Shown one piece after another: positions 3,364 through 24,137 of a stretch of DNA of 32,000 bases. Numbering within the stretch: the first letter of the stretch is position 1; the number at the start of each line of letters is the position of its first letter. The notes under the pieces are model-generated. The model was not told where the DNA came from and searched no databases. It saw nothing but the letters and a program-made list of their open reading frames with translations. A program made the position numbers and the translations under genes. Source of the stretch: Crocosphaera subtropica ATCC 51142 (GTDB lineage: Bacteria; Cyanobacteriota; Cyanobacteriia; Cyanobacteriales; Microcystaceae); NCBI RefSeq assembly GCF_000017845.1, contig NC_010546.1, forward strand, positions 2,190,001 to 2,222,000, in the 5' to 3' direction.

Positions 3364-3534
3364 GTAGCTTGTTTACTCCTCAACCATTCAGTTTGATATT
3401 TGCTGGCGTGGAAACCCCCTGTCTATTTTACGGGGAATTGTCCTTAAGTTCTAGAACGAAAACTACTTTATCTAGGTTCCTTAACAAACATCAATTTGAT
3501 CCGAAAATCTTAATCTTCCCTTGGTTTGGGTTTA

Positions 3535-3634
3535 AACTGCATAAGCTTTTTTTTTTGCCACTATCACTAAACAACCAGTTCAATAAAAAAACAACTGCAT
3601 AAGCTTTTAGAACTGACCACTATCACTAAACAAC
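3535..3634 (+). repeat. two-copy imperfect direct repeat (41-42 nt, 58-nt period) upstream of the Q/N-rich gene
   Basis: Copy 1 is 3535-3575 and copy 2 is 3593-3634. They share AACTGCATAAGCTTTT (16/16) and CCACTATCACTAAACAAC (18/18), separated by different cores (TTTTTTG vs AGAACTGA). Copy 2 ends 24 nt before the ATG at 3659. Confidence 0.8.
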
Positions 3635-3658
3635 AATCAACAAACGAGGTAATTTACC

Positions 3659-4117
3659 ATGTCTTTCATCAAAAAATCTGCTGCTGCTACCGTTGTTATT
3701 CTTTCTTCTTTAATGACTTTTTCTCCTGCTGTTAAGGCTGATAATACCGCTATCAATGGACAGTATAGTGAACAAACTGGGGCTGCTGTTGGTATTGGTA
3801 ACCGTGTTAATAATACCATGCGTCAAAGCTCTTTTCAAGGACAACGGAGTTCTTTTGGTTCTGGTAATAATGCAGCTTCTTCTACTATGTTTGGTTCTCA
3901 AACTGGGGTGGCTGATGGTATTGGTAATCGTGTCGGAAATCGCATGGGTCAATATAATAATCAACAACAAAATACCCGTTTTGGTTCTGGTAATAATGTT
4001 GGGATTTCTGAAATAGGAAGCGGTCAAACTGGGGCTGCGATCGGTGGTTTCAACTCAGTGGGTAACTCAGGGTTTCAATACAACAATCAACGTCAAGGTA
4101 ACACTTTCGGATTCTAA
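3659..4117 (+). CDS. secreted G/N/Q-rich repeat protein (curlin-like / amyloid-like repeats)
   Basis: 152-aa ORF with a signal peptide (AAATVVILSSLMTFSPAVKA|D). The mature part has three repeats of the pattern QTGxAxGIGNRVxNxMxQ...FGSGNN, plus segments GQYNNQQQN and FQYNNQRQGN. GAGG lies 10 nt upstream of the ATG. A strong terminator follows. Confidence 0.78.
   Translation: MSFIKKSAAATVVILSSLMTFSPAVKADNTAINGQYSEQTGAAVGIGNRVNNTMRQSSFQGQRSSFGSGNNAASSTMFGSQTGVADGIGNRVGNRMGQYNNQQQNTRFGSGNNVGISEIGSGQTGAAIGGFNSVGNSGFQYNNQRQGNTFGF
3773..4114 (+). repeat. three in-frame 126-nt (42-aa) coding repeats, the last truncated
   Basis: CAAACTGGGG(C/T)(T/G)GC... restarts at 3773, 3899 and 4025, an exact 126-nt period. 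It encodes QTGAAVGIGNRV / QTGVADGIGNRV / QTGAAIGGFNSV. Confidence 0.85.
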
Positions 4118-4124
4118 TTTCCTA

Positions 4125-4167
4125 AGCAGGGATCTGAGCCATACTGTTATAAGTCCCTGCTTTTTTT
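4125..4167 (+). terminator. rho-independent terminator of the Q/N-rich gene
   Basis: AGCAGGGA (4125-4132) pairs with TCCCTGCT (4154-4161), and the right arm runs into a T7 tract (4161-4167). Located 8 nt after the stop codon. Confidence 0.8.
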
Positions 4168-4199
4168 CTCATTTTAGTTCATTTTAGAAAGTTAAAATC

Positions 4200-4607
4200 A
4201 TGAAATCTATTCCATTCTTATTTCTATCTTTTGCTGTTTTCTTAATTCCTCTATCTATCAATCATCAACCTGCTGATGCAAGTTGTGCCATGACAGATGT
4301 TTCTTTTCAAGTAGCTATTAGAGGATCATCTACAGCAGCACAACAAAGCAATAATGTGGGAATGACAACCACAGGAGACTGTTGGGGAAATGCGACTACA
4401 AACACATCTACCCAAGTTTATACTGGTTCAGGAACGGTTCAACAAGATCGTAATAGTTCTCATTTTGTAGGGGGAAGTCAACCTTTCCCCTACGGAGTAA
4501 CTGGCCCAGTTGTCGGTACACAAATTACTGTTCCAGTTGATATTTATAGTCCAGCACATGACTCTACTTTTATGAATCATACTATGGGATCTGGCGTTTC
4601 TTTTTAA
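4200..4607 (+). CDS. small secreted S/T/Q/N/G-rich protein, unknown function
   Basis: 135-aa ORF with a clear signal peptide (IPFLFLSFAVFLIPLSINHQPADA|S) and 2 Cys in the mature part. A hairpin TAGGGTTT...AAACCCTA (4633-4659) lies downstream. No family recognised. Confidence 0.6.
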   Translation: MKSIPFLFLSFAVFLIPLSINHQPADASCAMTDVSFQVAIRGSSTAAQQSNNVGMTTTGDCWGNATTNTSTQVYTGSGTVQQDRNSSHFVGGSQPFPYGVTGPVVGTQITVPVDIYSPAHDSTFMNHTMGSGVSF

Positions 4608-4719
4608 AAGAACATTGAACGACAACAATTTTTAGGGTTTGCCTTAGTGTTAAACCCTAGATAATTCAAAACAATTTCTGTCTAATTTCATCTTTTTTAT
4701 CGTTAGTGAGAATAATTTT

Positions 4720-5127
4720 ATGTCTTTTCTTCGTTCATCTTTTATCTCTTTAACTTGTCTCGTTTCTTTGAGCAGTTATCACCCCATCATGGCACAAGAA
4801 TATGAATCATGGGTCGGTAATTTTGAGCCTGAGAAACATTGTAATGTTTATGAAGTTCATAATCAAAGACACGGAGCAGAATATGATAATCGGGCAACGG
4901 TTAATGATACAATAATTACTGAGTCTGAACATAGCAATAATCAAGTATCAGGAGCAAATACGGGTTCTCAATCTCAATCCGTTGATTTAGTTCGACAGCA
5001 AGATTGTTCTACGGTAATTCAATCAGAAGCGCATCGTTATGGAATCTATCACCAAACCCAAACAACTCGTTATATTCATGATACTCAAACTAGGCAAAAT
5101 TTCTTAGGGAATCTCTTAGCTTGGTAA
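4720..5127 (+). CDS. small secreted Q/T/H-rich protein, unknown function
   Basis: 135-aa ORF with an N-terminal hydrophobic segment (FISLTCLVSLSSYHPIMA|QE). It is the same size as the preceding gene and is followed by a hairpin at 5163-5194. No family recognised. Confidence 0.5.
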   Translation: MSFLRSSFISLTCLVSLSSYHPIMAQEYESWVGNFEPEKHCNVYEVHNQRHGAEYDNRATVNDTIITESEHSNNQVSGANTGSQSQSVDLVRQQDCSTVIQSEAHRYGIYHQTQTTRYIHDTQTRQNFLGNLLAW

Positions 5128-5162
5128 GGATAATATTCAGGCTAAAATTGTTTATTGATTGT

Positions 5163-5194
5163 AGGATTAAGGCATTAATATTTATCTTAATCCT
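5163..5194 (+). terminator. hairpin terminator candidate after 4720..5127
   Basis: AGGATTAAG (5163-5171) pairs with CTTAATCCT (5186-5194): a 9-bp stem and 14-nt loop, followed by T-rich sequence (tcccttctatttattc). Confidence 0.5.
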
Positions 5195-5260
5195 TCCCTT
5201 CTATTTATTCTCATTTTAGTTTTGAATTGAATTATATTACAACAGCAAACTATTAATACT

Positions 5261-6676
5261 ATGGATCAATTAACATCTTATTGGCAACTTTATCAGGTTC
5301 GATCCAATGGTACAGAATACAAGAAGAAGATAGAAGCAGCAGAAAAATGGCTGAAAGATAGTTATGATTTAACTCAGTGGACTCAAGAAAAAATACTCAA
5401 TAATTTACTTAATATTTTCAAGAATACTGCATTAGATAACTTATTAGATAACTTAATCGAAAAGGGTAAATCCGGACTTTGTTTAAGATGTTATATTTCT
5501 GAATATATTGTAACAGCTTGTAAAAAAAGAGCTAGTTTATTTAGTAGTAGTCAAGGGGTGACTTATCAAGCTTTACTACCCTTTGTATTAGATGATGATG
5601 GTAAGTCTTTAATTATTATTGATCAAGAAGATAAACAGCAACTAGAAATAACAGATAATGGAAAATTCTTACCTAAATCTAATAATTTGTTTACTGTTGA
5701 AGTGATCAATAGTTATAAAAATAGTTCTGACAATCAAACAAAACTTAGTTTAAGGAATTGGACTTATTTAAAAACAAAACAAAATAAAAAGATTGTTGAT
5801 TTTTTAGCAGAGTTTGGCTTTAGTAATGTAACAGATTGGTCTTTACTAAATCGAGTTAAAAAATATGAATTACAACAATTAACTGAACAAGAACAGTCAA
5901 TTATTAAAGTGTATGCAGAGGTGTATAAACGTGATCGCCGTCAAAATCAATACATATTACGCAGTAAATGTCAACCTCCTTCCGTTGAACAATTACAAGA
6001 AATGATCAATAAATTGAACGTTGAAAAAATCCAAAAACCTCATACTTTACTGAATGAATTAAAACGTATTGCTAAACAACTACGCCGAGTTGTAGTCTCT
6101 TTAGATAGTAGTCTAATGGATAAAGAAGGAGAGACTACAACCTTAGAAGTTCCCTATCATGATGTACCCATCGAAGAGAAAGAAAAATTAGAAATTTTCA
6201 ATCAAATTCAAGATAATTTAATGCACTGTTTTCAAACGAATATAGGCAAAGTAGTGCAAAATACGATACAAAAATTACAAAAGAGTAAGAGTTATTCTCT
6301 CTATGCTTCTCAGTATATATATGTCCTGAAAAGCTTTTATCAAGAAGGAAAAAGTATCAGTAATATTGCTAAAGAGATAGGAATTGAACAGTATAAAGCA
6401 AGTCGAATATTTAGCCCAAAAAACTTATTAAAAGAAGTTCGTAAACAAACCGTAGATGATTTAATAAACGCTATTCTAAAATTAATAAAAGAGAGAAAAC
6501 TTATCACTGAACCTTTTGATCATAATTACTTAACCCTATTAACAGAAACCGTTGAACAATATGCAGATAAAGAAATTTTCGCCGAAGCTTCAGCGCAAAT
6601 TATGACCAGTACCAACAACAATTATGAAAATTTATACACTCAAACCCTAATAGAATACTTAACCCAAAATAGCTAA
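5261..6676 (+). CDS. sigma-70-like / HTH protein of the type found next to DUF1822 genes
   Basis: 471-aa ORF. Segments LCLRCYISEYIVTACKKRASLF and NVTDWSLLNRVKK match motifs I recall from cyanobacterial 'sigma-70 family' proteins encoded upstream of DUF1822. The C-terminus has a region-4-like HTH (QEGKSISNIAKEIGIEQYKASRIF). Assignment is by memory, not by search. Confidence 0.7.
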   Translation: MDQLTSYWQLYQVRSNGTEYKKKIEAAEKWLKDSYDLTQWTQEKILNNLLNIFKNTALDNLLDNLIEKGKSGLCLRCYISEYIVTACKKRASLFSSSQGVTYQALLPFVLDDDGKSLIIIDQEDKQQLEITDNGKFLPKSNNLFTVEVINSYKNSSDNQTKLSLRNWTYLKTKQNKKIVDFLAEFGFSNVTDWSLLNRVKKYELQQLTEQEQSIIKVYAEVYKRDRRQNQYILRSKCQPPSVEQLQEMINKLNVEKIQKPHTLLNELKRIAKQLRRVVVSLDSSLMDKEGETTTLEVPYHDVPIEEKEKLEIFNQIQDNLMHCFQTNIGKVVQNTIQKLQKSKSYSLYASQYIYVLKSFYQEGKSISNIAKEIGIEQYKASRIFSPKNLLKEVRKQTVDDLINAILKLIKERKLITEPFDHNYLTLLTETVEQYADKEIFAEASAQIMTSTNNNYENLYTQTLIEYLTQNS

Positions 6677-6707
6677 TATAATTAACTTAATTTAGTGGAG
6701 AAATATC

Positions 6708-7733
6708 ATGACAAATAGACTTATGGAAACCAGTGACTTTCGTTTATTAATACCCGAAGAAATTTGGCTAGAACAAGAAGATTATGATCTTGCCAAACAA
6801 TTAAGTGAAATTGAAGGAACGGAAGACAAAAAATGGCAAGCGTATATCAATTTATTAGGGATGTTTGCTTTAGAAAAATGGCTAAAAGAAAATATTTATA
6901 CTCAAGACATACAGCGCATAATTGATAGGATTGATACTTACGGATATCTACAACGAAAAGGGTTTAAATTTTGTCTTATAACTCAAGAAGATTTTTTACA
7001 AGAAGGAATGATTGTTCCTAGAGAATTAATTTATAACTCTGATCATACTGCTCATTTTTATGTGGCAATGGAGGTGTTAGAAGAGGAAGAAATAGCGATT
7101 ATTAGGGGATTTATTTCTTATGATAAACTATCTCAATTATCATTACCAACGATTGAAGATAATAATTATTGGTTATTTTTGGATTATTTAGATCCCGAAC
7201 CTAATCATCTCTTAATGACGTACAAATATCTTGAACCCAGTACCATTATCTTACCTCAAAATATAGTTAATCAAGTGCAAGAAAATGTACAAGAAGCAAT
7301 TATAAATTTAAGTAATTGGTTAGAGGGTATGTTAGAGGAAAGTTGGCAAAATTTAGAACAATTAATAAATACGGATGCAGGTTTAAATTTTGCTACTCGT
7401 AGTCTATCAGAAGAAAAGAAAGTCGGTAAATTTATCCGATTACAAATGGAATTCGACGAACAAATTTTTGTTTTATTATTAACCATTTCTCCCACAGCAG
7501 AAGATAAACTAAGAATTCAAGTTCAATTGTATCCAACCAATAACCAAACCTATTTATCTTCTGAAATTAAGTTAAGAATGTACTCAAAATCAGGAAAATT
7601 AGTTAAAGAAGTCATAGCGGGAAAACAGGATAATTATATTCAGTTACCTCCTTTTTCTGCATCCAAAGATAGACAATTTAAAATTGAAGTTAATCTCAAC
7701 AATGCTTCTATTACTGAGACATTTCGAGTGTAA
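6708..7733 (+). CDS. DUF1822 family protein
   Basis: 341-aa ORF. The N-terminus has WQAYINLLGMFALEKWLKE. The C-terminal ~100 aa end in QDNYIQLPPFSASKDRQFKIEVNLNNASITETFRV, matching my recollection of DUF1822. A GGAG SD lies at 6697-6700, 7 nt before the ATG, and the gap to the upstream gene is 31 nt. Confidence 0.78.
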   Translation: MTNRLMETSDFRLLIPEEIWLEQEDYDLAKQLSEIEGTEDKKWQAYINLLGMFALEKWLKENIYTQDIQRIIDRIDTYGYLQRKGFKFCLITQEDFLQEGMIVPRELIYNSDHTAHFYVAMEVLEEEEIAIIRGFISYDKLSQLSLPTIEDNNYWLFLDYLDPEPNHLLMTYKYLEPSTIILPQNIVNQVQENVQEAIINLSNWLEGMLEESWQNLEQLINTDAGLNFATRSLSEEKKVGKFIRLQMEFDEQIFVLLLTISPTAEDKLRIQVQLYPTNNQTYLSSEIKLRMYSKSGKLVKEVIAGKQDNYIQLPPFSASKDRQFKIEVNLNNASITETFRV

Positions 7734-7737
7734 AAAG

Positions 7738-10700
7738 ATGATTTTAATAATTAATTTTGGAAAAGGAAATTTAGAAGAAGGATTTTCTTATATTACCCTT
7801 CAATTATGGTCAGATTATAGCCCTTTTCCCCAACAGTTTACCAGTTGTTTACCTGCTAACCTAGAATTAAAAAATAGTTGTAATCAATGGCGACTACAAT
7901 ATGATCAATATCATCAAAGAAATAGTTTTGATTCTAGAAACAATCTAGATGACAATGAGGATGAATTTGATTTTGAGGACAGTGTTACTAATTTTTCAGA
8001 AGTTGATTTTATCTCTTTTTCTAATAACTTACTTGAAACATTTAATCAGTGGCTAAATAGTGATAATTTTTCTAATATTCTGGAAAAAATAGCAGCAAAA
8101 TTGAATCCTAATGAAGCAATTAGATTGATTTTAAATACGGATAATGATACCTTAAAACGACTTCCTTGGAGTGATTGGGAATTTTTGAATGCTTATCCTA
8201 AATCAGAAATTTCCCTGAGTCGTTCCCATTATATTCGTGAAGAAATTAATATCAAACTTCGCAATAAAGTGAGAATTTTGGCTATTATTGGTAACACACA
8301 AGGAATTAATGTGAACCAAGAAAAACAATGGTTAAATCAATTACCAGATGCAGAAGTTTATTTTTTAGAAAAACCGTGTAAAGATGATATTAAAACCATT
8401 TTGTCTGATACTAAAGGATGGGATATTTTATTTTTTGCTGGTCATAGTAATACAAAAGAAAATACAGGAATATTATCAATAAATGATAGTAATGAAAGAG
8501 ATGTCACCATTAATGAATTAAGATGTCATTTAAAAGAAGCAATCAAAAATGGGTTACAAGTTGCTATTTTTAATTCCTGTGACGGTTTAGGTATTGGTGA
8601 CGGGTTAGCTAGTTTGTATATTCCCATTACAATTATTATGCGAGAACCCGTTCCTAATAAAGTAGCACAAGTTTTTTTTCATCAATTTTTAGAGAGTTAT
8701 GCTAACCAAAAATTATCTCTTTATATAGCAGTAAAAAATGCTAGAAAAAAGTTAGAAACCCTGGACAATGATTATCTTACTGCTTCTTGGTTGCCGATGA
8801 TATTTCAAAACCCTTCATTTTCTCCTCCTAGTTGGGTAGAGTTGGGTGGGTTTTCTCCTTGTCCCTATTTAGGATTAAATGCTTTTCAAGAAAGCAATGC
8901 TGATCTATTTTTTGGACGAGAAACGTTAATAAATGAGTTAGAAGATTTAGTTAAGCAAAATTATTTTATTCCTTTAGTTGGTGCATCAGGAAGCGGTAAA
9001 TCTTCCCTTATTTTTGCAGGTTTAATTCCTAAATTACGTCAAGATATTAATCAAAATTGGCGAATTAGTTGGTTTCGTCCGAATAATAATCCTTTTGAGG
9101 GATTCGTTAAAGCTATTTCTCAATTTACTAATAATTCTTATGATCGTTTTCAAGAATTACAATTAGAACTTGATTTAGAAAATGATAGGACTGCTATTAG
9201 TAATTGTTTTAACCAAATTATTCAAAACTTCAACTATTCTAGTAACTTATTATTAATAATTGATCAGTTTGAAGAACTGTTTACTTTATGCAATAAGTCT
9301 CAGCGTGAAGCATTTTTAAAAAGTGTACTAACTGCTATTAATACTGTTTATAAACTTACAGTTATTATTACCTTACGGGCTGATTTTTTAAGTTATTTAT
9401 TAAATTCTGTAGAATGGGGACAATTATTAAAACAATATTCTCCTCAATATATTACTTCAATGAATCGAGAAGAATTAAAATCAGCCATTGTTAAGCCGGC
9501 TGCTTTTCATGGGGTTAAATTAAAAGATAAATTAGTAGATCAATTAATTGATGATGTCTATCAAGAAGCAGGATATTTACCCTTATTACAGTTTACCTTA
9601 ACTGAACTTTGGAAACAGCAAAAAAAAGGATGGTTAACTTATCAAGATTATGAAACAATAGGAGGAGTTAGAACTGCATTAGCTAACTATGCAGAGTCAG
9701 TTTATCAAAAATTTTATCAAGAAGAACAAGAAAAAATAAAAAAAATATTTCTGCAACTGGTTACTCTGAAAGAAAATAATCAACCAACTAAAAAATTAGT
9801 GACAAAAGACAATAACTTCGTTAGAGAAAATTGGCAGTTAATCACTCGTTTAGCGTCCAGTCATCTCTTGATTACAAACTCATTAGAAAAAGAAATAACC
9901 GTTGAAATTGCTCACGAAAAATTGATTACTGCTTGGCCAAGATATTATCAATGGATACAAGAACATCAAGATTTTCTACGCTGGCGATCGCAATTATCTA
10001 ATAATATTAATCAATGGAGAAATTGTCTTCAAATAAAACAAGATCAACCGTTACAATTGAGACTATTTTTATCGAAGAAAATTGAAATTTGGAAGAATTA
10101 TCAACAACAAAAAGGTTATTTATTAAAAGATAGTCCATTAATTAATGCAAGAATTTGGTATAAGAAACGATTACATGAATTAGCAGAAGAAGAAAAAGAA
10201 TTTATTGAAAAAAGTTTAAAACTTCGTCGTAATCAAAAAATCACGATTAGTTTAATCAGCATTTCTGTCTTAGGCACTATTTCATTAGTTAGTATATTTG
10301 CTTGGGTACAATCAAAAGAAAGACAACTAGAACAATTAATTCGTTATGCTTCTTCTCAGGTAATTACTTCAGAAAATCTAAAGACCATCATCGATGTTTT
10401 ACCTAACTATTTAAACAGCGCAAATCAAAGAGAAAAAAGTAACCAAATAAAGCAAGCTATGGATGATTATCGTCAAATTTTACGAGTCGCTAATAACACT
10501 TACGAAAAAATAGAAAAAGATCCTCACATTTTCCAAAATGTATCAAATGTTCAAGATAAAATCACAAATATTTCTCAACAAGCTGAGTCCTCTTTAGCTG
10601 AAATGATTTCTAAATATAGATTACCGAAGTTAGAACAACAACTCACGAATAAACAGTTTGGCGAAAGAAAAATAAGTCAAATGATTAACCCCGATGCTGA

Positions 10701-11034
10701 TACTATAGAATATGATTATACTCAAACCATTTATACAGACGCATTAAAAACAACCCATGATATTATTATGAGTGATATAGGAGCAAAAACTGATCAAAAT
10801 AGTAATGATATAATCGATGAAGGAGAAGAAAAAATGATTCCGTGTCAAACCTTAATACAAATAGAAAAACTATGGAGAAAAGCAACTAATAATCAGTGTG
10901 GATGGTATGGAGAAGATAACGTTTGGCAATCAAACTGTCAACCATTTAAAGGAAATACCCTTACTAATATGTTGATGTATCCCAGTGATGTTCCTTTACT
11001 AGAAAATCGTTTACATCAGTGTCAAATATTGTAA
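7738..11034 (+). CDS. CHAT (caspase-fold) protease fused to STAND-type P-loop NTPase, one TM helix and a Cys-containing C-terminal domain
   Basis: I take the ATG at 7738 (MILIINFGKGN...), 4 nt after the DUF1822 stop, as the start rather than 7684, which overlaps the upstream gene. CHAT dyad: FFAGHS (His 8443-8445) and IFNSCDG (Cys 8578-8580). NTPase: PYLGLNAFQESNADLFFGRE then Walker A GASGSGKSS (8980-9006) and Walker B-like LLLIIDQFEE (Asp 9262-9264). TM helix ITISLISISVLGTISLVSIFAWV (10240-10308). Confidence 0.88.
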   Translation: MILIINFGKGNLEEGFSYITLQLWSDYSPFPQQFTSCLPANLELKNSCNQWRLQYDQYHQRNSFDSRNNLDDNEDEFDFEDSVTNFSEVDFISFSNNLLETFNQWLNSDNFSNILEKIAAKLNPNEAIRLILNTDNDTLKRLPWSDWEFLNAYPKSEISLSRSHYIREEINIKLRNKVRILAIIGNTQGINVNQEKQWLNQLPDAEVYFLEKPCKDDIKTILSDTKGWDILFFAGHSNTKENTGILSINDSNERDVTINELRCHLKEAIKNGLQVAIFNSCDGLGIGDGLASLYIPITIIMREPVPNKVAQVFFHQFLESYANQKLSLYIAVKNARKKLETLDNDYLTASWLPMIFQNPSFSPPSWVELGGFSPCPYLGLNAFQESNADLFFGRETLINELEDLVKQNYFIPLVGASGSGKSSLIFAGLIPKLRQDINQNWRISWFRPNNNPFEGFVKAISQFTNNSYDRFQELQLELDLENDRTAISNCFNQIIQNFNYSSNLLLIIDQFEELFTLCNKSQREAFLKSVLTAINTVYKLTVIITLRADFLSYLLNSVEWGQLLKQYSPQYITSMNREELKSAIVKPAAFHGVKLKDKLVDQLIDDVYQEAGYLPLLQFTLTELWKQQKKGWLTYQDYETIGGVRTALANYAESVYQKFYQEEQEKIKKIFLQLVTLKENNQPTKKLVTKDNNFVRENWQLITRLASSHLLITNSLEKEITVEIAHEKLITAWPRYYQWIQEHQDFLRWRSQLSNNINQWRNCLQIKQDQPLQLRLFLSKKIEIWKNYQQQKGYLLKDSPLINARIWYKKRLHELAEEEKEFIEKSLKLRRNQKITISLISISVLGTISLVSIFAWVQSKERQLEQLIRYASSQVITSENLKTIIDVLPNYLNSANQREKSNQIKQAMDDYRQILRVANNTYEKIEKDPHIFQNVSNVQDKITNISQQAESSLAEMISKYRLPKLEQQLTNKQFGERKISQMINPDADTIEYDYTQTIYTDALKTTHDIIMSDIGAKTDQNSNDIIDEGEEKMIPCQTLIQIEKLWRKATNNQCGWYGEDNVWQSNCQPFKGNTLTNMLMYPSDVPLLENRLHQCQIL

Positions 11035-11086
11035 TGGTTTTTATACTTTTAGAAATTAACCATGAATGTCATTAAAAATTATATAA

Positions 11087-11112
11087 AGATTTAGAAAAAA
11101 ATCTGTTTTTTT
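11087..11112 (+). terminator. weak terminator candidate after the CHAT-STAND gene
   Basis: AGATTT-agaaaa-AAATCT (6-bp AT-rich stem), then G plus T7 (11105-11112), about 50 nt after the stop. The stem is weak. Confidence 0.3.
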
Positions 11113-11160
11113 GCCAAATTTACACTATTCTTTAAATAGAAGTATTATATTATTTTTAGT

Positions 11161-11622
11161 ATGAAGCCAGCAGTCAAGAGACACACTTTAATTGGATTTT
11201 GGGCGAGTCTTGTTGGTTGGATTGGAGCAATGGGTTTTGCACACACCTATGGTTCCGCTCAAGTAGGAGCAAAACTTAGTCTCCTCACCTATCTGCTGAT
11301 GATACCTGTTTATGTTGTTGTTATTTCATTGGCTAATGGTATCGGTTGTATTATTGGTACTGGAATGTTTGGGGGTAAAGCACGAGCGTTTGAAGCTGTG
11401 TTTTGTTTTGCTTGTTCTGTGGCCATCGTGGGGTTGACTTTAGAATTTTTCTTAGAGATTTTTTACACTAAAAACTCAGGTTTTCTAGCTCATCTCTTGA
11501 CGTTTGGTGAAATTGCCTTACTCCAAGGAATTCTTATTGCTTTTAGTACCGGAGTTATCATTAGGTTGGCTGATATATTTCCTGATCTGAAAATAGGAGA
11601 AAAAAACTCAGAGGATTTTTAA
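11161..11622 (+). CDS. small integral membrane protein (about 4 TM helices), unknown function
   Basis: 153-aa ORF made largely of hydrophobic helices (LIGFWASLVGWIGAMGF, LLMIPVYVVVISLANGIGCIIG, FCFACSVAIVGLTLEFFLEIF, LLQGILIAFSTGVIIRL). No family recognised. Confidence 0.6.
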   Translation: MKPAVKRHTLIGFWASLVGWIGAMGFAHTYGSAQVGAKLSLLTYLLMIPVYVVVISLANGIGCIIGTGMFGGKARAFEAVFCFACSVAIVGLTLEFFLEIFYTKNSGFLAHLLTFGEIALLQGILIAFSTGVIIRLADIFPDLKIGEKNSEDF

Positions 11623-11740
11623 GAATGCTTACTTACAAACTTGATCCTATCTTATCAATTTTTACATCAAACAAAATTGAAAAAATGCCTATTCTAGAGC
11701 CAGCTATAATAAGTTTACTAACTTATCAATTAACAAAAAA

Positions 11741-13108
11741 ATGAATAACAAAATCATAATAATTGTCATTACTTTAGTAATACCAATTTCTGCTTTTTCC
11801 CCAATCATTAAAAGTGAAGCCGTTATCCCTCAGTCAGCTAAAGTAACACAAATTACAGGAAGAAATACCATGACCCTTCGTCGAAAAGGTGGTCAGATAG
11901 GACCAGTTTCATTGCAAAGTGTGATGAGATTATGGGATAAATTGATTATGAATCCTGATAATAATAATCCTAAGCTTTTTACTAAATTAGAATTTTATGA
12001 TCATCAAGATAACCCTCTTAATTTGAAACTCTTAGCAGGGATTGAAAATAATCTCAGGACTAACTATTATTTACCCTGCCACGTTGATAGTCCAGATAAT
12101 TTTATTATTTCCTGGGAAAACCCCAAAACTAGAAGAGTAGGGTGTAAAAAAGGGATAAAAGTTAAGTCAGGAAATAAAAGCATTAGTCATCATAATACTG
12201 CTGAGATAATAGCATCTATTAACCCCTTAATTGCCCAAGAAAAAATTTATCAATGGCGATATTGTTCTATAGTAGATGAAACTGGAAAAGGATGGTTAGG
12301 ATTACAGTCCACACGCACAAATCCTTGTACTGAACCCCTCAAACAATGTGAAGAAGAAGGACAAGGCACCTGTACAGAATTAACCACAGATGACTGGAAC
12401 ACTGCTAATTCTAATCTAGTTGCTTCTATTGAATGCGATAATAATCAAGATTTTGTAACCACGGGAACAGGGGAAGATATTAAAGAAAAAGCAGAAAACT
12501 TATGGGAAGAAGTATCTAAAAGTGGAGCAATTTTTTGTGGATTTCATGTGTTTAGTGAAGATGAAATTATCGTCACCCCTAACCCCAGCGATGATCAAGC
12601 TATTGTCCAAGTAGGAGAAGCTGAGACTTGTTTGACGTTCCAAGTTAGTTCTGGAGAAATTACCCTTAATTCTTATAAAGATCCTCAAGGATTTACTTTA
12701 CAAACTGGTAATCAATATAATTATTGTCTTGATAATCAACCTAACTCCCTTTCTAACTTTGATTTGAGTAATGAATCCATTGCTATGCAGATTTTTAAGG
12801 CAAAAGAACGGGGTTATCAATTTTGTAATGAACTACAAGAAAGTGGAGGACAAGAAGGTAGTAAAAGAACCATTCAATTAACAGCAAATCAAGGAATTCT
12901 TAAACTTGATTATCAAATGTATCAAGTTCCTGATACCGTGGTTCTTACCTACGAAGGGAAGGAATTAGTTAGACAAGAAAATGTTTCAGGTTCAGATAGT
13001 TTATCCATTCCTTTTGAGGGAAAATCAGGTCAAGTTACAGTAGAAATTATCGGCAATCAAGATATTAGTACAACTCAATGGGACTATAAGTTACAATGTC
13101 CCCAATAA
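11741..13108 (+). CDS. secreted Cys-rich protein, unknown function
   Basis: 455-aa ORF with a signal peptide (IIIIVITLVIPISAFSPIIKSEA) and many Cys spread through the mature chain. The beta-rich-looking C-terminal module ends in TTQWDYKLQCPQ. No family recognised. Confidence 0.68.
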   Translation: MNNKIIIIVITLVIPISAFSPIIKSEAVIPQSAKVTQITGRNTMTLRRKGGQIGPVSLQSVMRLWDKLIMNPDNNNPKLFTKLEFYDHQDNPLNLKLLAGIENNLRTNYYLPCHVDSPDNFIISWENPKTRRVGCKKGIKVKSGNKSISHHNTAEIIASINPLIAQEKIYQWRYCSIVDETGKGWLGLQSTRTNPCTEPLKQCEEEGQGTCTELTTDDWNTANSNLVASIECDNNQDFVTTGTGEDIKEKAENLWEEVSKSGAIFCGFHVFSEDEIIVTPNPSDDQAIVQVGEAETCLTFQVSSGEITLNSYKDPQGFTLQTGNQYNYCLDNQPNSLSNFDLSNESIAMQIFKAKERGYQFCNELQESGGQEGSKRTIQLTANQGILKLDYQMYQVPDTVVLTYEGKELVRQENVSGSDSLSIPFEGKSGQVTVEIIGNQDISTTQWDYKLQCPQ

Positions 13109-21962: not shown

Positions 21963-24137
21963 CTAATTCCAAAAATCGACCTCCTGCCTCCTTTGACGGG
22001 AATGGGACTCGATCAAACCTCGCCAAATTTTAATAGTCGGCTGACGACTACTACTAATCATCTCTCCTGACGGGCCAGTTGCCACGGACAACACCCAATC
22101 TCTGTGGTCTGTTAACGTATCCAACAGCCTTTGATTTTGCCAGTCCCAGACTTGAAGCGTCTCATCAATACTACCACTGACTAACCTTTGACCATCACGG
22201 CTAAAAGTAACCGCCACAATGCGATCGCTATGTTCAGAAAAAGTAGATAGCACCTTTCCCGTGGCCATCTCCCAAACTTTGACCGTGCCATCCCAACTGC
22301 CACTAGCTAAGTAGTTTCCATCAGGGGAAAAGGCGACAGAACGAACGGCATCTTGATGATCAGATAAAGTTTGTAACATTTGACCGGTTTGAACATCCCA
22401 AAGCTTCACCGTGCCATCTTTACCACCACTGGCCAACCGTTTGCCATCAGGACTAAAGGTTGCACTAAACACCCAACCTGAATGACCCCTTAAAGTACGA
22501 ATTACCTCTGCTGTGGCCATATTCCAAAGTTTAATCGTTTCATCCGCACTAGCACTGGCTATGATTTGTTGATCAGGACTTATTTCTACTGACCACAAAG
22601 AATCCTGATGAGCGGTCAAAGTCCGAATTAATTCACCCGTTGCTGTGTTCCAGAGTTTAATCGTTTGATCCGCACTAGCACTAGCGATTACATTTCCATC
22701 GTGACTAACCGTTACTGAACGCACACCATCCCCATGACCGGAGAAAGTTTGCAAAAGGCTTCCTGTCTCTGTATTCCAAACCCTAACGGTTTTATCCTCG
22801 CCACCACTGACAGCCAGTTTCCCATTGGAACTCAGGACAACAGACCACACCCCATTGCGATGACCAGTCAGGGTTGTTGTTGGGTGAAGGGCGTTGATTT
22901 CTTCCTCTTTTTCCTCAGTGAGAGAAGGGGTGATAGGAGTACGGACAAATCTTGCCATCCCAATTCCGAGTATCAAAGTCACCAAAGTAAAGAGCAAACA
23001 TTGTCCCCATTTAATAGCAAAGCCAGAAGAACGAGTCAGATTAGATGTTTTGCGTTGAGTGGCTTGTGAGTTGTTAGCCATAGAAACCGTCTCTTGGTCT
23101 AAGGCGATAGAAGGGTTAGGGAGTGGTTTGTTATGATTGCCTTGGGGTAATTGTTTGGCGGGATCAAGAGAAATAGCCGAAGATAACGCTTCACTCAATT
23201 CCCGAACAGAACTAAACCGATCATCAGGAGACTTGTTTAGGCAGCCCATGACCACCGCTTCAAGGGTTTCGGATAAGTGGTCACAGTTAGGCTGCGATCG
23301 CAAAGGGAGAGGGGTTTTAGACGCATGAGCAAATAGCCAAGATTCTACACTAACTCGATTTTCTCGAAAGTTAAAGCCAAAGGGATCAACCCCTGTCAAC
23401 ATCTCATACAACATTAACCCTAAACTATAAATATCTGCCCGTGCATCTAAGTTTTGTGATCCTTCTAATTGTTCAGGGGCTGCATAATGACAAGTTCCTA
23501 AAAACATATTCGTCAGACTGGTATGTTCTGCTTGAAGGTTGCGAATTTTAGCAATACCAAAGTCAATAACTTTTACTAAGTCTCCTAATGCAGTGGGAAC
23601 CAGAAAGATGTTTTGCGGTTTCAAGTCTCGATGAACCACTTTAATAGTTTGGGTTTCTCCTGTTGCCTCATCCACTAACGTAACACCGTCATGGGCTAAT
23701 TCTAATCCTGCACAAACTTGAGAGATAATTAAACAAGTTTCTTCAGGAGACAAACGAGGGGTATATTTTAAGCGTTGAGCTAGGGTTTCGCCTTCTAGAT
23801 ATTCCATTATATAGAAAGGATAACCCCCCTCAGTAATTCCATAATCACTGACTTGGACAATATGTTCACTTTTAAGAGAAGCACAAATCTTTAATTCCCA
23901 ATCAAACCGAATTCGCATCGAGCGATCATCAGCTAAAGATTCTCTGAGTAGTTTAAAAGCGACAGGTTTATTGAGACGTTTATCTGTCGCTAAGAAAACA
24001 TGACCCATTCCTCCTTCTCCTAGTTGTTGTTCTAAGCGATAACGGTTTTCTTCTCCAATGCACAAAGAACCGCTAGGGGAAGATTGAGCAGAAGGAATAC
24101 TATGGAAATTGTAGGGAGAAGATTTGATAGGAAACAT
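21963..24137 (-). CDS. Ser/Thr protein kinase - TM helix - 7-bladed WD40 propeller
   Basis: Hanks kinase motifs: GEGGMGHVFLA, VAFKLL, HRDLKPQNIFL, DFGIAK, APEQ. One TM helix (CLLFTLVTLILGIGMARFV). Seven WD40 repeats lie at about 21995-22880, with a 126-nt period. Blades at 22522 and 22648 are about 35/40 identical at the DNA level. Confidence 0.92.
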   Translation of the reverse strand: MFPIKSSPYNFHSIPSAQSSPSGSLCIGEENRYRLEQQLGEGGMGHVFLATDKRLNKPVAFKLLRESLADDRSMRIRFDWELKICASLKSEHIVQVSDYGITEGGYPFYIMEYLEGETLAQRLKYTPRLSPEETCLIISQVCAGLELAHDGVTLVDEATGETQTIKVVHRDLKPQNIFLVPTALGDLVKVIDFGIAKIRNLQAEHTSLTNMFLGTCHYAAPEQLEGSQNLDARADIYSLGLMLYEMLTGVDPFGFNFRENRVSVESWLFAHASKTPLPLRSQPNCDHLSETLEAVVMGCLNKSPDDRFSSVRELSEALSSAISLDPAKQLPQGNHNKPLPNPSIALDQETVSMANNSQATQRKTSNLTRSSGFAIKWGQCLLFTLVTLILGIGMARFVRTPITPSLTEEKEEEINALHPTTTLTGHRNGVWSVVLSSNGKLAVSGGEDKTVRVWNTETGSLLQTFSGHGDGVRSVTVSHDGNVIASASADQTIKLWNTATGELIRTLTAHQDSLWSVEISPDQQIIASASADETIKLWNMATAEVIRTLRGHSGWVFSATFSPDGKRLASGGKDGTVKLWDVQTGQMLQTLSDHQDAVRSVAFSPDGNYLASGSWDGTVKVWEMATGKVLSTFSEHSDRIVAVTFSRDGQRLVSGSIDETLQVWDWQNQRLLDTLTDHRDWVLSVATGPSGEMISSSRQPTIKIWRGLIESHSRQRRQEVDFWN

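What the first reader, a model, noticed from the sequence alone, without database searches (positions are those of the whole stretch)
5261..11034. Tightly coupled sigma-like / DUF1822 / CHAT-protease-STAND-NTPase cassette: candidate uncharacterised caspase-type conflict or cell-fate system
Three co-directional genes are packed like one operon. The first gap is 31 nt with a GGAG SD at 6697-6700, and the second is 4 nt (7734-7737). Gene 1 has sigma-70-like N-terminal motifs and a region-4-like HTH. Gene 2 is DUF1822, a largely cyanobacterial family with no assigned function as far as I know. Gene 3 fuses a caspase-fold CHAT protease (His 8443-8445, Cys 8578-8580) to a STAND-type P-loop NTPase (Walker A 8980-9006). 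STAND NTPase plus caspase-like effector is the logic of apoptosome-like and anti-phage death switches. A dedicated sigma-like factor and DUF1822 partner could act as regulator, decoy or substrate. I recall sigma-like and DUF1822 genes co-occurring in cyanobacteria, but I know of no mechanism described for the trio.
Basis: partly seen in the sequence, partly recalled or inferred. Interest (0 to 1): 0.85.

Follow-up and report, generated by a model that had tools for sequence, protein, structure and literature searches.

The report
Caspase-type sensor with regulator gene pair
Three packed genes in a Crocosphaera genome encode a membrane-anchored caspase-like protease/ATPase sensor, an HTH regulator resembling the DNA-binding end of a sigma factor, and its constant acidic partner (DUF1822); the gene set is real and conserved across cyanobacteria, was predicted by computer analysis in 2021, and in the paper library searched here has never been tested experimentally.

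Summary
The window is Crocosphaera subtropica ATCC 51142 (g1 = cce_2161, g2 = cce_2162).

- **g2** is a full-length DUF1822 protein.
- **g3** has a conserved ~190-aa N-terminal module, a CHAT domain with an invariant His/Cys dyad, and an nSTAND1 NTPase. These are followed by one TM helix and a Cys-rich, weakly GUN4-like C-terminal domain.
- **g1** shows only a sigma region-4-like HTH. No sigma region 2 was detectable.

Two censuses support the linkage:
- DUF1822 follows g1 in 73/76 loci.
- g1 precedes DUF1822 in 58/61 loci.
- A caspase-fold protease gene with varying sensor domains lies just downstream in 58-70% of loci.

This matches the "EACC2-caspase + ECF sigma + DUF1822" neighbourhoods described in silico by Kaur et al. 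(eLife 2021). It is therefore a new member of a known, untested kind.

New observations:
- A fixed bipartite motif (AACTGCATAAGyT-N16-CAtCTATaTAt) lies ~80 nt upstream of most g1 genes. It also precedes g2, protease genes and nearby ORFs. In the window, two copies lie at 3535 and 3593.
- The DUF1822 model is alpha/beta plus beta-sandwich, not TPR.

Best reading: a protease-gated transcription switch analogous to Craspase-Csx30-RpoE.

The parts
3535..3575 (+). Copy 1 of the family-wide promoter-like motif (AACTGCATAAGCT-N-CCACTATCACTAAAC). It is a tandem duplicate relative to the orthologous locus L001.
   Evidence: Read. The duplication is inferred from overlapping blastn blocks against L001/L002. 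This copy did not reach 6 bits in the PWM scan of the window and is called by eye from its exact AACTGCATAAGCT and CCACTATCACTAAAC matches to copy 2.
3593..3635 (+). Copy 2 of the motif, 66 nt upstream of ORF 3659-4117. It is the only PWM hit on the + strand of the window.
   Evidence: PWM score is 17.5 bits; shuffles give 0.05 hits >=12 bits per strand of the window. The ortholog L001 has the same hit before its 152-aa ORF.
3659..5127 (+). Three small ORFs with signal-peptide-like N-termini (3659-4117, 4200-4607, 4720-5127), co-directional with and directly upstream of g1. They are candidate members of the same transcription unit or regulon (tentative).
   Evidence: ORFs; no Pfam family. The motif lies in front of the first ORF. 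The arrangement is conserved in L001/L002.
5164..5195 (+). 9-bp inverted repeat (AGGATTAAG ... CTTAATCCT) in the 133-nt gap before g1. Its significance is unclear.
   Evidence: Sequence. The RNA fold of the gap is not better than shuffles (z = -0.82). It is partly conserved in L001/L002.
5261..6676 (+). g1 (cce_2161), 471 aa. It is a basic protein with a sigma region-4-like HTH (about aa 330-395), a disordered linker (aa 278-304), and an N-terminal ~280-aa domain with no detectable relatives outside the family.
6697..6700 (+). GGAG Shine-Dalgarno-like sequence 7 nt before the g2 ATG.
6708..7733 (+). g2 (cce_2162), 341 aa, DUF1822. It is acidic (pI 4.6). It has an N-terminal alpha/beta domain (aa 17-175), a flexible linker (aa ~181-236) containing the 96%-conserved Arg231, and a C-terminal Ig/FN3-like beta-sandwich (aa 237-340).
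   Evidence: Pfam E=4.8e-51; AF2 model with pLDDT 82.6; Foldseek; charge and conservation.
7738..8307 (+). g3 aa 1-190: the constant N-terminal module that precedes the caspase domain (EACC2 in the sense of Kaur et al. 2021).
   Evidence: This region is conserved in 46 GTDB loci and 36 metagenome loci in proteins with different C-termini. Conserved residues are listed.
8320..8772 (+). g3 aa 195-345: CHAT (caspase-fold) protease domain, with His236 (8443-8445) and Cys281 (8578-8580).
   Evidence: Pfam CHAT E=1.7e-9. The dyad codons were read and are invariant in 31/31 homologs.
8863..10023 (+). g3 aa 376-762: nSTAND1 NTPase, with Walker A GASGSGKSS at 8980-9006.
   Evidence: Pfam nSTAND1 E=1.4e-109.
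10240..10308 (+). g3 aa ~835-857: the single predicted transmembrane helix.
   Evidence: Kyte-Doolittle maximum is 2.2 over 19 aa. The hydrophobic segment is conserved in 4 orthologs.
10309..11034 (+). g3 aa 858-1098 plus stop: C-terminal domain with several invariant Cys (four in the last ~70 aa) and a weakly GUN4-like core (aa ~997-1066). It is the presumed sensor, probably on the far side of the membrane.
   Evidence: Sub-threshold GUN4 hits in all four orthologs (E from 9.4e-5 to 9.2e-3, below the gathering score). Alignment.

Best explanation
The cassette is a sensor-protease plus regulator-pair signalling module. It belongs to the 'EACC2-caspase / ECF-like sigma / DUF1822' class predicted in silico in 2021.

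Proposed mechanism:
1. g1 (basic, sigma-4-like HTH) and g2 (acidic DUF1822) form an obligate regulator/partner pair. DUF1822 holds g1 inactive, in the manner of an anti-sigma factor.
2. g3 is the input device. A signal is perceived by its membrane-anchored, Cys-rich, GUN4-like C-terminal domain and drives NTP-dependent switching or oligomerisation of the nSTAND1 module.
3. That switch activates the adjacent CHAT protease, possibly through autoprocessing as Kaur et al. propose.
4. The protease then cuts the pair. The most likely target is DUF1822, in its flexible inter-domain linker around the conserved Arg231. The alternative target is g1's disordered linker at aa 278-304.
5. Freed g1 directs transcription from promoters carrying AACTGCATAAGyT-N16-CAtCTATaTAt. 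These precede g1 itself, g2, the protease genes and nearby, often secreted, proteins. In this window they precede the three small secreted-protein ORFs at 3659-5127.

What is shown: gene linkage, domain content, the catalytic residues, and the motif with its positions.

What is inferred: the g1-g2 complex, the cleavage and its site, g1 binding to the motif, the nature of the signal, and the membrane topology.
For: **Domain assignments:**

**g1-g2 is the invariant core**
- DUF1822 lies downstream of g1 in 73/76 GTDB loci, with a median gap of 27 nt.
- g1 lies upstream of DUF1822 in 58/61 metagenome loci.
- Their pairwise distance matrices correlate at r=0.90; 0 of 500 Mantel permutations reach this value.
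- Their charges are opposite: family median pI is 4.9 for g2 and 8.5 for g1.

**A caspase-fold protease gene usually follows g2**
- It lies on the same strand within 2.5 kb downstream in 46/66 GTDB loci, and within about 3.5 kb in 29/50 metagenome loci.
- The architectures are interchangeable: EACC2-CHAT fused to nSTAND1-WD40, CHASE2 or AAA_35; TPR-CHAT of ~900 aa; stand-alone CHAT followed by nSTAND1-WD40; and Peptidase_C14 followed by a STAND protein.
- This is the pattern expected of swappable input modules acting on a constant target.

**g1 has a sigma-4-type HTH:**

**The motif**
- CTGCATAA occurs upstream of 35 of 77 g1 genes; 0.3 are expected.
- Its position is fixed at about -80.
- It was confirmed on the second locus set, partly independent (metagenome contigs, some apparently from the same assemblies as the GTDB MAGs), in 48/60 g1 genes.
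- It also precedes 34 g2 genes, 9 protease genes and 43 other ORFs.
- Hit density falls from 2.98/kb next to g1 to 0.03-0.05/kb beyond 2 kb on the upstream side (0.05-0.17/kb downstream); the shuffle expectation is ~0.003/kb.

**DUF1822 model:** two domains joined by a low-confidence linker containing a 96%-conserved Arg.

**Experimental precedent for the logic:** in type III-E CRISPR systems the TPR-CHAT protease Csx29 cleaves Csx30 in a loop between two domains. Csx30-NTD binds the sigma factor RpoE with Kd ~0.2 uM, and RpoE itself is not cleaved (PMC9825189).

**Prior prediction:** Kaur et al. 2021 independently predicted caspase activation followed by a sigma-mediated transcriptional step.
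Against: - No direct evidence exists for any protein-protein contact or cleavage.
- DUF1822 has no detectable similarity to Csx30, Csx31 or any anti-sigma factor. The PDB profile search found nothing, and Foldseek returned only generic beta-sandwich hits at E >= 5e-3.
- g1 lacks a detectable sigma region 2. It may be an ordinary HTH regulator rather than a sigma factor, and the motif could be an operator rather than a promoter.
- 21-24% of loci with enough sequence show no caspase-fold gene within the flanks fetched (6-8 kb), so the pair can apparently work with other or distant inputs.
- In this window the motif is not directly upstream of g1. It lies 1.7 kb away in front of other ORFs.
- The GUN4 assignment is below Pfam's threshold.
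- Topology rests on a hydropathy plot only.
Confidence: 0.5

Rival explanations
1. Abortive-infection or programmed-death switch. The STAND NTPase senses a phage or stress ligand and oligomerises like an apoptosome. The CHAT protease is then the killing effector, degrading many cellular proteins. g1 and g2 only set the expression level of the system or act as decoys.
For: - STAND plus caspase-like effector architecture.
- The sensor domains vary strongly between related genomes, which is typical of conflict systems.
- The cassette has 29-30% GC against 37-45% in the flanks.
Against: - No PADLOC family matches any of the three proteins.
- No DUF1822 relative was found in IMG/VR contigs.
- The locus sits in the same chromosomal context in three strains at 85-92% nucleotide identity, not in a visibly mobile island.
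- The sensor parts are membrane or extracytoplasmic types (TM plus Cys-rich domain here, CHASE2 elsewhere), not the cytoplasmic repeat sensors alone.
- The part that never varies is the HTH/DUF1822 pair with its own conserved promoter-like motif. That is hard to explain if the pair were accessory.
Confidence: 0.2
2. The g1/DUF1822 pair is a transcription regulator and co-regulator that controls expression of the neighbouring protease genes and a few secreted proteins. The information flow is regulator to protease, not protease to regulator. The protease acts on unrelated, for example envelope or developmental, substrates.
For: - The motif lies in front of protease genes in 9 loci and in front of g2 in 34 loci, so the proteases are at least sometimes under motif control.
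- The pair occurs without a nearby protease in 21-24% of loci.
- g1 shows only an HTH.
Against: - It does not explain why so many different caspase-fold architectures, and almost only those, are recruited next to the pair.
- It does not explain why g3 is translationally coupled to g2 by a 4-nt gap.
- The distance matrices of g1, g2 and the EACC2-CHAT module co-vary (r=0.83-0.86), as expected for interacting parts. Shared inheritance would give the same result.
Confidence: 0.2
3. The three genes are adjacent by chance or share only an operon, without functional coupling.
For: None beyond the absence of experiments.
Against: Reciprocal linkage is 96% and 95% across about 140 loci from many cyanobacterial genera. 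The gaps are short or overlapping.
Confidence: 0.02

Closest known systems
EACC2-caspase neighbourhoods with 'ECF sigma factor' and 'TPR protein (Pfam DUF1822)' (Kaur, Iyer, Burroughs, Aravind, eLife 2021, PMC8195603; in silico only)
   Same: - The same three gene families occur in the same order.
- The protease has a constant N-terminal module plus caspase, followed by a variable C-terminus. STAND NTPase, CHASE2 and GUN4 are all listed by the authors and all seen here.
[quoted passage not shown]
   Different: - This exact variant (nSTAND1 - TM - Cys-rich GUN4-like tail) and this genome's genes are not mentioned. Searching the supplements for 'cce_2163' and '51142' gave only one hit, the strain name in a list of organisms.
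- The AF2 model of DUF1822 has no TPR.
- Sigma region 2 was not detectable.
- The promoter-like motif and the near-obligate g1-g2 pairing were not seen in the passages of that paper and its supplements read here; the whole paper was not read.
Type III-E CRISPR Craspase module: Cas7-11 + Csx29 (TPR-CHAT) + Csx30 + Csx31 + RpoE
   Same: - A CHAT protease is activated by a fused or bound sensor.
- It is encoded beside a sigma-type regulator and a two-domain partner protein that binds the sigma factor and is cut in the inter-domain loop (PMC9825189).
- TPR-CHAT proteins of Csx29-like domain composition sit directly after g2 in at least 5 sister loci (Pfam) and in 13 of the 78 loci by the profile search.
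   Different: - The window has no CRISPR array and no match to any Rfam family, CRISPR repeat families included.
- The sensor is a STAND NTPase with a membrane domain, not an RNA-guided effector.
- DUF1822 shows no sequence or fold match to any PDB chain other than generic beta-sandwich domains, so no similarity to Csx30 or Csx31 was found.
- g1 is 471 aa and lacks a recognisable sigma-2 domain.
ECF sigma / anti-sigma pairs controlled by regulated proteolysis (e.g. RpoE-RseA with DegS/RseP; the CRISPR-linked CalpL-CalpT-CalpS is named from my own knowledge and was not checked here)
   Same: - A regulator and its partner are co-transcribed.
- There is a conserved, probably autoregulatory, promoter-like motif in front of the regulator gene.
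- A membrane-linked protease serves as the input.
   Different: - The partner is cytoplasmic and acidic, with no TM helix and no anti-sigma domain hit.
- The protease is caspase-fold rather than a serine or metallo site-1/site-2 protease.
- The motif does not resemble the usual ECF -35 'AAC' / -10 'CGT' pattern (my own knowledge).
STAND/NLR-like anti-phage sensors with protease effectors (Avs-type; named from my own knowledge)
   Same: A P-loop STAND NTPase is fused to an N-terminal effector-like protease, and the sensor ends are variable.
   Different: There is no PADLOC match, and the system is always accompanied by an HTH/DUF1822 pair. This member is membrane-anchored.

Membership tests
EACC2-caspase system with ECF-like sigma and DUF1822 (Kaur et al. 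2021) | A constant N-terminal domain (EACC2) lies immediately before a caspase-fold domain | tested here: met
   aa 1-190 of g3 is conserved together with the CHAT domain in 46 of 78 GTDB loci and 36 of 80 metagenome loci, with many >=90% conserved residues. The alpha+beta fold itself was not modelled.
EACC2-caspase system with ECF-like sigma and DUF1822 (Kaur et al. 2021) | The caspase/CHAT domain has a catalytic His-Cys dyad | tested here: met
   Pfam CHAT E=1.7e-9. His236 and Cys281 are invariant in 31/31 homologs.
EACC2-caspase system with ECF-like sigma and DUF1822 (Kaur et al. 2021) | The C-terminal region varies strongly between homologs | tested here: met
   C-termini seen: nSTAND1+WD40, WD40, CHASE2, AAA_35, none, and nSTAND1+TM+GUN4-like.
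EACC2-caspase system with ECF-like sigma and DUF1822 (Kaur et al. 2021) | Neighbouring genes encode a sigma-like HTH protein and a DUF1822 protein | tested here: met
   g2 is DUF1822 at E=4.8e-51. The g1 family has a Sigma70_r4-like HTH. Linkage is 73/76 and 58/61.
Sigma-70 / ECF sigma factor family (for g1) | Region 4 HTH (-35 recognition) | tested here: met
   11 of 42 family members hit Pfam Sigma70_r4, best E=1.5e-5. hhalign against 10 ECF sigmas gives probability 78%, E=1.9e-5, over 38 columns. TIGR02937 E=0.0076, below its cutoff. The window protein itself has no Pfam hit.
Sigma-70 / ECF sigma factor family (for g1) | Region 2 (core binding, -10 recognition and melting) | tested here: not met
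   No Sigma70_r2 hit in any of 42 members. hhalign of the N-terminal 290 aa against the ECF region 2 profile gives probability 0.7%. Foldseek of the whole model found ECF SigL only at E=1.2. A very divergent sigma-2 cannot be excluded, because no domain-level structure search was possible.
STAND NTPase, nSTAND1 clade | The nSTAND1 profile is matched, with Walker A and Walker B motifs | tested here: met
   Pfam PF20703 E=1.4e-109 over aa 376-762. GASGSGKSS is at aa 415-423. An LLLIIDQFEE Walker-B-like motif is visible in the translation.
Type III-E Craspase / Csx30 / RpoE module | Association with Cas7-11 and a CRISPR array | tested here: not met
   There is no CRISPR-like repeat array and no Rfam match. 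Of the neighbouring ORFs that were scanned, none gave a Cas-related Pfam hit; not every ORF in the window was scanned.
Type III-E Craspase / Csx30 / RpoE module | The partner protein is homologous to Csx30 or Csx31 | tested here: not met
   The DUF1822 profile finds no PDB chain at E<0.02. The top 50 Foldseek hits are generic beta-sandwiches.
Known anti-phage defence systems (PADLOC-DB v2) | Any component matches a PADLOC model | tested here: not met
   0 families for all three proteins at E<=0.1.
TRADD-N domain proteins (for g2; some NCBI 'DUF1822' entries are labelled TRADD-N+TPRs in the 2021 supplement) | An RRM-like beta-alpha-beta-beta-alpha-beta domain with a conserved tiny-residue-Ser motif in the beta2-beta3 turn | tested here: inconclusive
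   The secondary-structure order of the AF2 model does not read as a simple RRM-like unit. No bacterial TRADD-N alignment was available.
GUN4 domain (for the g3 C-terminus) | Match to Pfam PF05419 above the gathering score (29.2 bits) | tested here: inconclusive
   All four orthologs give 16.6-23.0 bits, E from 9.4e-5 to 9.2e-3, on the same stretch. The hits are consistent but sub-threshold.

The most novel reading that the evidence does not exclude
The sigma-4-HTH/DUF1822 pair is a cyanobacteria-wide, proteolytically gated transcription switch. It would be a CRISPR-independent counterpart of Craspase-Csx30-RpoE. Interchangeable caspase-fold sensor proteases (STAND, CHASE2, TPR and C14 types) would cut DUF1822 at its conserved linker Arg. 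That would release an atypical sigma-like factor lacking a canonical region 2. The factor would then read its own promoter class (AACTGCATAAGyT-N16-CAtCTATaTAt) and switch on a small local regulon of mostly secreted proteins.
Probability: 0.3. Interest if true: 0.75.

Novelty: new member of a known kind. Interest (0 to 1): 0.5.

Why it matters
If the proposed mechanism holds, caspase-like proteases in cyanobacteria would act mainly as signal transducers that license a dedicated transcription factor. The same logic was recently shown for CRISPR-linked Craspase.

Several features make this directly testable in a tractable unicellular strain:
- a 1:1 regulator/partner pair;
- a defined catalytic dyad and a Walker A lysine;
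- a candidate cleavage linker;
- a candidate DNA target.

It would also give a first function to DUF1822 and to a family of ~470-aa 'hypothetical' proteins. That family has 292 relatives in the GTDB species genomes.

The gain over the 2021 in silico description is incremental rather than conceptual.

Tried and rejected
- **Foldseek, whole g1 model against the PDB:** no hit below E=0.4; sigma factors appear only at E=1.2 and 3.3. Uninformative for a multi-domain model with pTM 0.51.
- **PDB sequence-profile search with the g1 family:** only short HTH matches, to the DeoR/SorC type and YlxM.
- found one true ECF sigma and one g1 homolog at E=0.012. Too weak to use.
- **hhalign of the g1 N-terminus against sigma region 2:** negative.
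- **Test of the idea that DUF1822 is related to Csx30/Csx31 or an anti-sigma factor:** no support.
- **hhalign of DUF1822 against human TRADD-N:** negative.
- **PADLOC:** no hits.
- **NCBIfam:** only sub-threshold hits.
- **DUF1822 in viral contigs:** none.
- **Literature search for cce_2161, cce_2162 and cce_2163:** nothing.
- **RNA structure in the g1 leader:** not better than shuffles.
- **Motif-associated 'other' ORFs:** they do not form one family, so no single conserved output gene could be named.
- **First search for related loci attempt with the 42-sequence alignment:** failed for lack of a conserved stretch. It succeeded with a 24-sequence alignment.
- **Two tool calls failed on a frame error of mine** and were repeated.

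Full report
**1. What is in the sequence**

The window is Crocosphaera subtropica ATCC 51142 (formerly Cyanothece). g1 is identical to cce_2161 and g2 to cce_2162.

Three + strand ORFs are present:
- g1, 5261-6676, 471 aa.
- g2, 6708-7733, 341 aa.
- g3, 7738-11034, 1098 aa from the ATG. The mechanical ORF starts at a TTG at 7684, but residues conserved in 31 homologs begin at aa 8 of the ATG-started protein.

Every coordinate in the finding was read and is correct. This covers the stop and start codons, the 31-nt and 4-nt gaps, GGAG at 6697-6700, His236 at 8443-8445, Cys281 at 8578-8580 and Walker A GASGSGKSS at 8980-9006.

No terminator-like site separates the genes on the + strand. The block from 5 to 11 kb has 29-30% GC against 37-45% on either side.

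**2. The proteins**

*g2.* It is a full-length DUF1822 protein (Pfam E=4.8e-51).

An AlphaFold2 model built on 81 homologs (pLDDT 82.6) shows three parts:
- an N-terminal alpha/beta domain (aa 17-175);
- a low-confidence linker;
- a C-terminal beta-sandwich (aa 237-340).

Foldseek finds only generic Ig/FN3-like sandwiches for the latter, at E >= 5e-3. A sequence profile finds nothing in the PDB. The model contains no TPR, contrary to the label used in the literature.

The family is acidic: median pI 4.9 and net charge -16. The window protein's N-domain carries -18. Arg231 in the flexible linker is 96% conserved.

*g3.* It has CHAT (E=1.7e-9, aa 195-345) and nSTAND1 (E=1.4e-109, aa 376-762). 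The His/Cys dyad is invariant in 31/31 homologs.

- a single strongly hydrophobic helix at aa ~835-857;
- a 240-aa C-terminal domain, conserved in four orthologs, with several invariant cysteines (four in the last ~70 aa) and consistent but sub-threshold GUN4 hits (E from 9.4e-5 to 9.2e-3).

If the NTPase and protease are cytoplasmic, this tail should lie outside the cytoplasm. That is inference from a hydropathy plot only.

*g1.* It has no Pfam hit of its own. Its family of ~470-aa cyanobacterial 'hypothetical proteins' shows a sigma region-4-type HTH:
- 11 of 42 members hit Sigma70_r4, best E=1.5e-5.
- A profile-profile comparison was run with ten genuine ECF sigmas that I collected from plasmids and one locus. 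It aligns g1 aa 330-376 to region 4.2 at probability 78%, E=1.9e-5.

The N-terminal 290 aa show no similarity to sigma region 2 (probability 0.7%). No member hits Sigma70_r2.

The AF2 model (pLDDT 84) has a disordered linker at aa 278-304. As a whole it gives no significant PDB match; ECF SigL appears at E=1.2.

So 'sigma-like' holds for the DNA-binding end only. The family is basic (median pI 8.5).

**3. Gene-neighbourhood census**

*Anchored on g1.* 292 relatives were found among GTDB species genomes, essentially all cyanobacteria, and 78 loci were fetched.
- A DUF1822 gene follows on the same strand in 73 of 76 loci with room, and in 69 within 800 bp. The median gap is 27 nt.
- A gene with the g3-type N-terminal module plus CHAT follows g2 directly in 30 of 66 loci.

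The genes downstream in the remaining loci were then checked with Pfam. Many are other caspase-fold proteases:
- TPR-CHAT of ~900 aa (CHAT E~1e-60);
- stand-alone CHAT followed by an nSTAND1-WD40 protein;
- Peptidase_C14 followed by a STAND protein.

Counting all of these, a caspase-fold gene lies within 2.5 kb downstream on the same strand in 46 of 66 loci. It lies elsewhere in the locus in 6 more.

*Anchored on DUF1822.* 80 metagenome loci were fetched.
- A g1 homolog lies upstream in 58 of 61 loci, and in 57 it is adjacent.
- A caspase-fold gene lies downstream in 29 of 50 loci and elsewhere in 9.

*Architectures and co-inheritance.* The EACC2-CHAT proteins carry nSTAND1+WD40, WD40, CHASE2, AAA_35 or nothing at their C-termini.

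Pairwise distance matrices of g1 and g2 correlate at r=0.90, with 0 of 500 permutations reaching this value. Each correlates at 0.83 with the EACC2-CHAT module. This fits inheritance as a unit but does not by itself prove physical interaction.

No DUF1822 relative was found in IMG/VR viral contigs.

The window's flanks are collinear with two related strains at 85-92% nucleotide identity.

**4. A conserved upstream motif (new here)**

K-mer enrichment in the 300 nt upstream of 77 non-redundant g1 genes found CTGCAT in 48 (4.0 expected) and CTGCATAA in 35 (0.3 expected). The motif starts 76-90 nt before the g1 ATG in most loci.

The 51-site consensus is AA.CTGCATAAgTT..Aa.tGct.aCAtCTATaTAt. It is directional and bipartite, and the second half looks like a -10 region with one nearly invariant A.

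A PWM scan of 1.14 Mb gave 170 hits:
- 66 before g1;
- 34 before g2, about 56 nt from its ATG, in loci where the g1-g2 gap is long;
- 9 before protease genes;
- 43 before other ORFs;
- 17 before no ORF that could be called.

On the DUF1822-anchored metagenome set, which was not used to build the PWM, 48 of 60 g1 genes have a hit 70-95 nt upstream. Some of those metagenome contigs appear to be the same assemblies as GTDB MAGs in the first set, so the two sets are only partly independent.

Hit density falls with distance from g1:
- 2.98 per kb in the 300 nt before g1;
- 0.19 per kb out to 2 kb upstream;
- 0.03-0.05 per kb further upstream (0.05-0.17 per kb on the downstream side);
- about 0.003 per kb expected from shuffles.

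The other motif-bearing ORFs are heterogeneous, and several have signal peptides.

In the window there is no copy directly before g1. Two tandem copies (AACTGCATAAGCT at 3535 and 3595) precede three small co-directional ORFs with signal-peptide-like N-termini (3659-4117, 4200-4607, 4720-5127) that run up to g1. The ortholog L001 has one copy at the same place.

The functional unit may therefore start near 3535 rather than at 5261.

**5. What is already known**

Only one paper in the searchable library links these genes: Kaur, Iyer, Burroughs and Aravind, eLife 2021 (PMC8195603).
- It defines EACC2 as a constant alpha+beta domain preceding a caspase domain, in proteins with highly variable C-termini (CHASE2, PDZ, kinase, STAND NTPase and others).
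- It proposes stimulus-induced caspase autoprocessing followed by a step involving the sigma factor.
[quoted passage not shown] No experimental work and no mention of cce_2161, cce_2162 or cce_2163 were found.

The window's cassette meets every defining feature of this class that I could test (see the membership table).

**6. Mechanism**

The best-supported reading is a protease-gated transcription switch.
- The constant elements are the basic HTH protein and its acidic two-domain partner.
- The variable elements are caspase-fold proteases with different sensor domains.
- The likely output is transcription from the conserved motif.

The only experimentally worked-out system with the same parts list is the type III-E CRISPR Craspase. 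There TPR-CHAT (Csx29) cleaves Csx30 between its two domains. Csx30-NTD binds the sigma factor RpoE with Kd ~0.2 uM, and RpoE is not cleaved (PMC9825189).

By analogy I propose that DUF1822 is the substrate and inhibitor of g1, with the conserved linker Arg231 as a candidate cleavage region. This step is inference. DUF1822 is not detectably related to Csx30, so the cassette works like that module at most and is not a member of it.

Rivals:
- a death or abortive-infection effector role for the protease (about 0.2);
- a one-way 'regulator controls protease' arrangement (about 0.2).

The evidence for and against each is given in the rival entries.

**7. Verdict**

The system is a new member, with an unusual membrane-anchored nSTAND1/GUN4-like sensor, of a kind already described in silico and not yet tested.

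Added value from this analysis:
- the near-obligate g1-DUF1822 pairing, shown in both directions;
- the breadth of caspase-fold partners, including Csx29-like TPR-CHAT;
- a non-TPR model for DUF1822;
- the absence of a detectable sigma-2 in g1;
- a conserved promoter-like motif that gives an immediate experimental handle.

Noticed in passing
window 3535-3635; loci L001-L078 about 80 nt upstream of g1 homologs; L088-L167: A conserved directional bipartite motif, AACTGCATAAGyT-N16-CAtCTATaTAt, lies at a fixed distance before g1. It also precedes g2, protease genes and neighbouring ORFs. It was not seen in the passages of the 2021 paper that were read.
   Followed up: yes
window 3534-3644 versus L001 2207-2260: The motif region is tandemly duplicated (~58-nt unit) in the window relative to the orthologous locus of Cyanothece sp. 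BG0011, giving two promoter-like copies in a row.
   Followed up: partly
window 3659-4117: This 152-aa ORF has a signal peptide and three G/N/Q-rich repeats (QTGxAxGIGNRVxN...Q). To me they resemble curlin-type amyloid repeats. There is no Pfam hit at E<=0.001.
   Followed up: no
window 5001-12000: GC content is 29-32% across the cassette and the ORF after it, against 37-45% in the flanks. Even so, the locus is collinear with two related strains, so any acquisition predates their split.
   Followed up: partly
window 11025-11735 versus L002 13766-13790: The 153-aa multi-TM ORF at 11161-11622, just after g3, is absent from the otherwise collinear locus of 'Unicellular cyanobacterium SU3'.
   Followed up: partly
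window 11741-13108: This 455-aa ORF has an N-terminal hydrophobic segment, many Cys residues and no Pfam family. It is co-directional with and downstream of the cassette, and conserved in L001/L002.
   Followed up: no
L031 10582-13329, L041 10571-13285, L058 10654-13320, L013 11978-14737, L005 6007-8769: TPR-CHAT proteins of ~900 aa, with the same domain composition as the Craspase protease Csx29, sit directly downstream of the g1-DUF1822 pair in several Scytonema, Calothrix and Nostocales loci.
   Followed up: partly
L015 7986-17256 (Calothrix sp. PCC 7716): Two divergently arranged g1-DUF1822 pairs flank one EACC2-CHAT-WD40 gene. One protease may serve two regulator pairs.
   Followed up: no
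L014 (contig labelled MAG: Sphingobacterium thalpophilum): The closest non-Crocosphaera ortholog of the whole cassette, with the same nSTAND1-TM-Cys-rich tail, lies on a contig assigned to a Bacteroidota MAG. All other hits are cyanobacterial, so mis-binning seems likely.
   Followed up: no
PMC8195603 main text and supplementary file 17, versus model m799639e4d301: The paper calls DUF1822 a 'TPR protein', and some NCBI DUF1822 entries are labelled 'TRADD-N+TPRs'. The AF2 model of g2 (pLDDT 82.6) has an alpha/beta domain and a beta-sandwich and no TPR.
   Followed up: partly
window 21963-24137 (- strand): A Ser/Thr protein kinase fused to WD40 repeats (724 aa), with an internal 126-nt tandem repeat at 22522-22748. 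This is another large signalling protein typical of cyanobacteria and has no visible link to the cassette.
   Followed up: no
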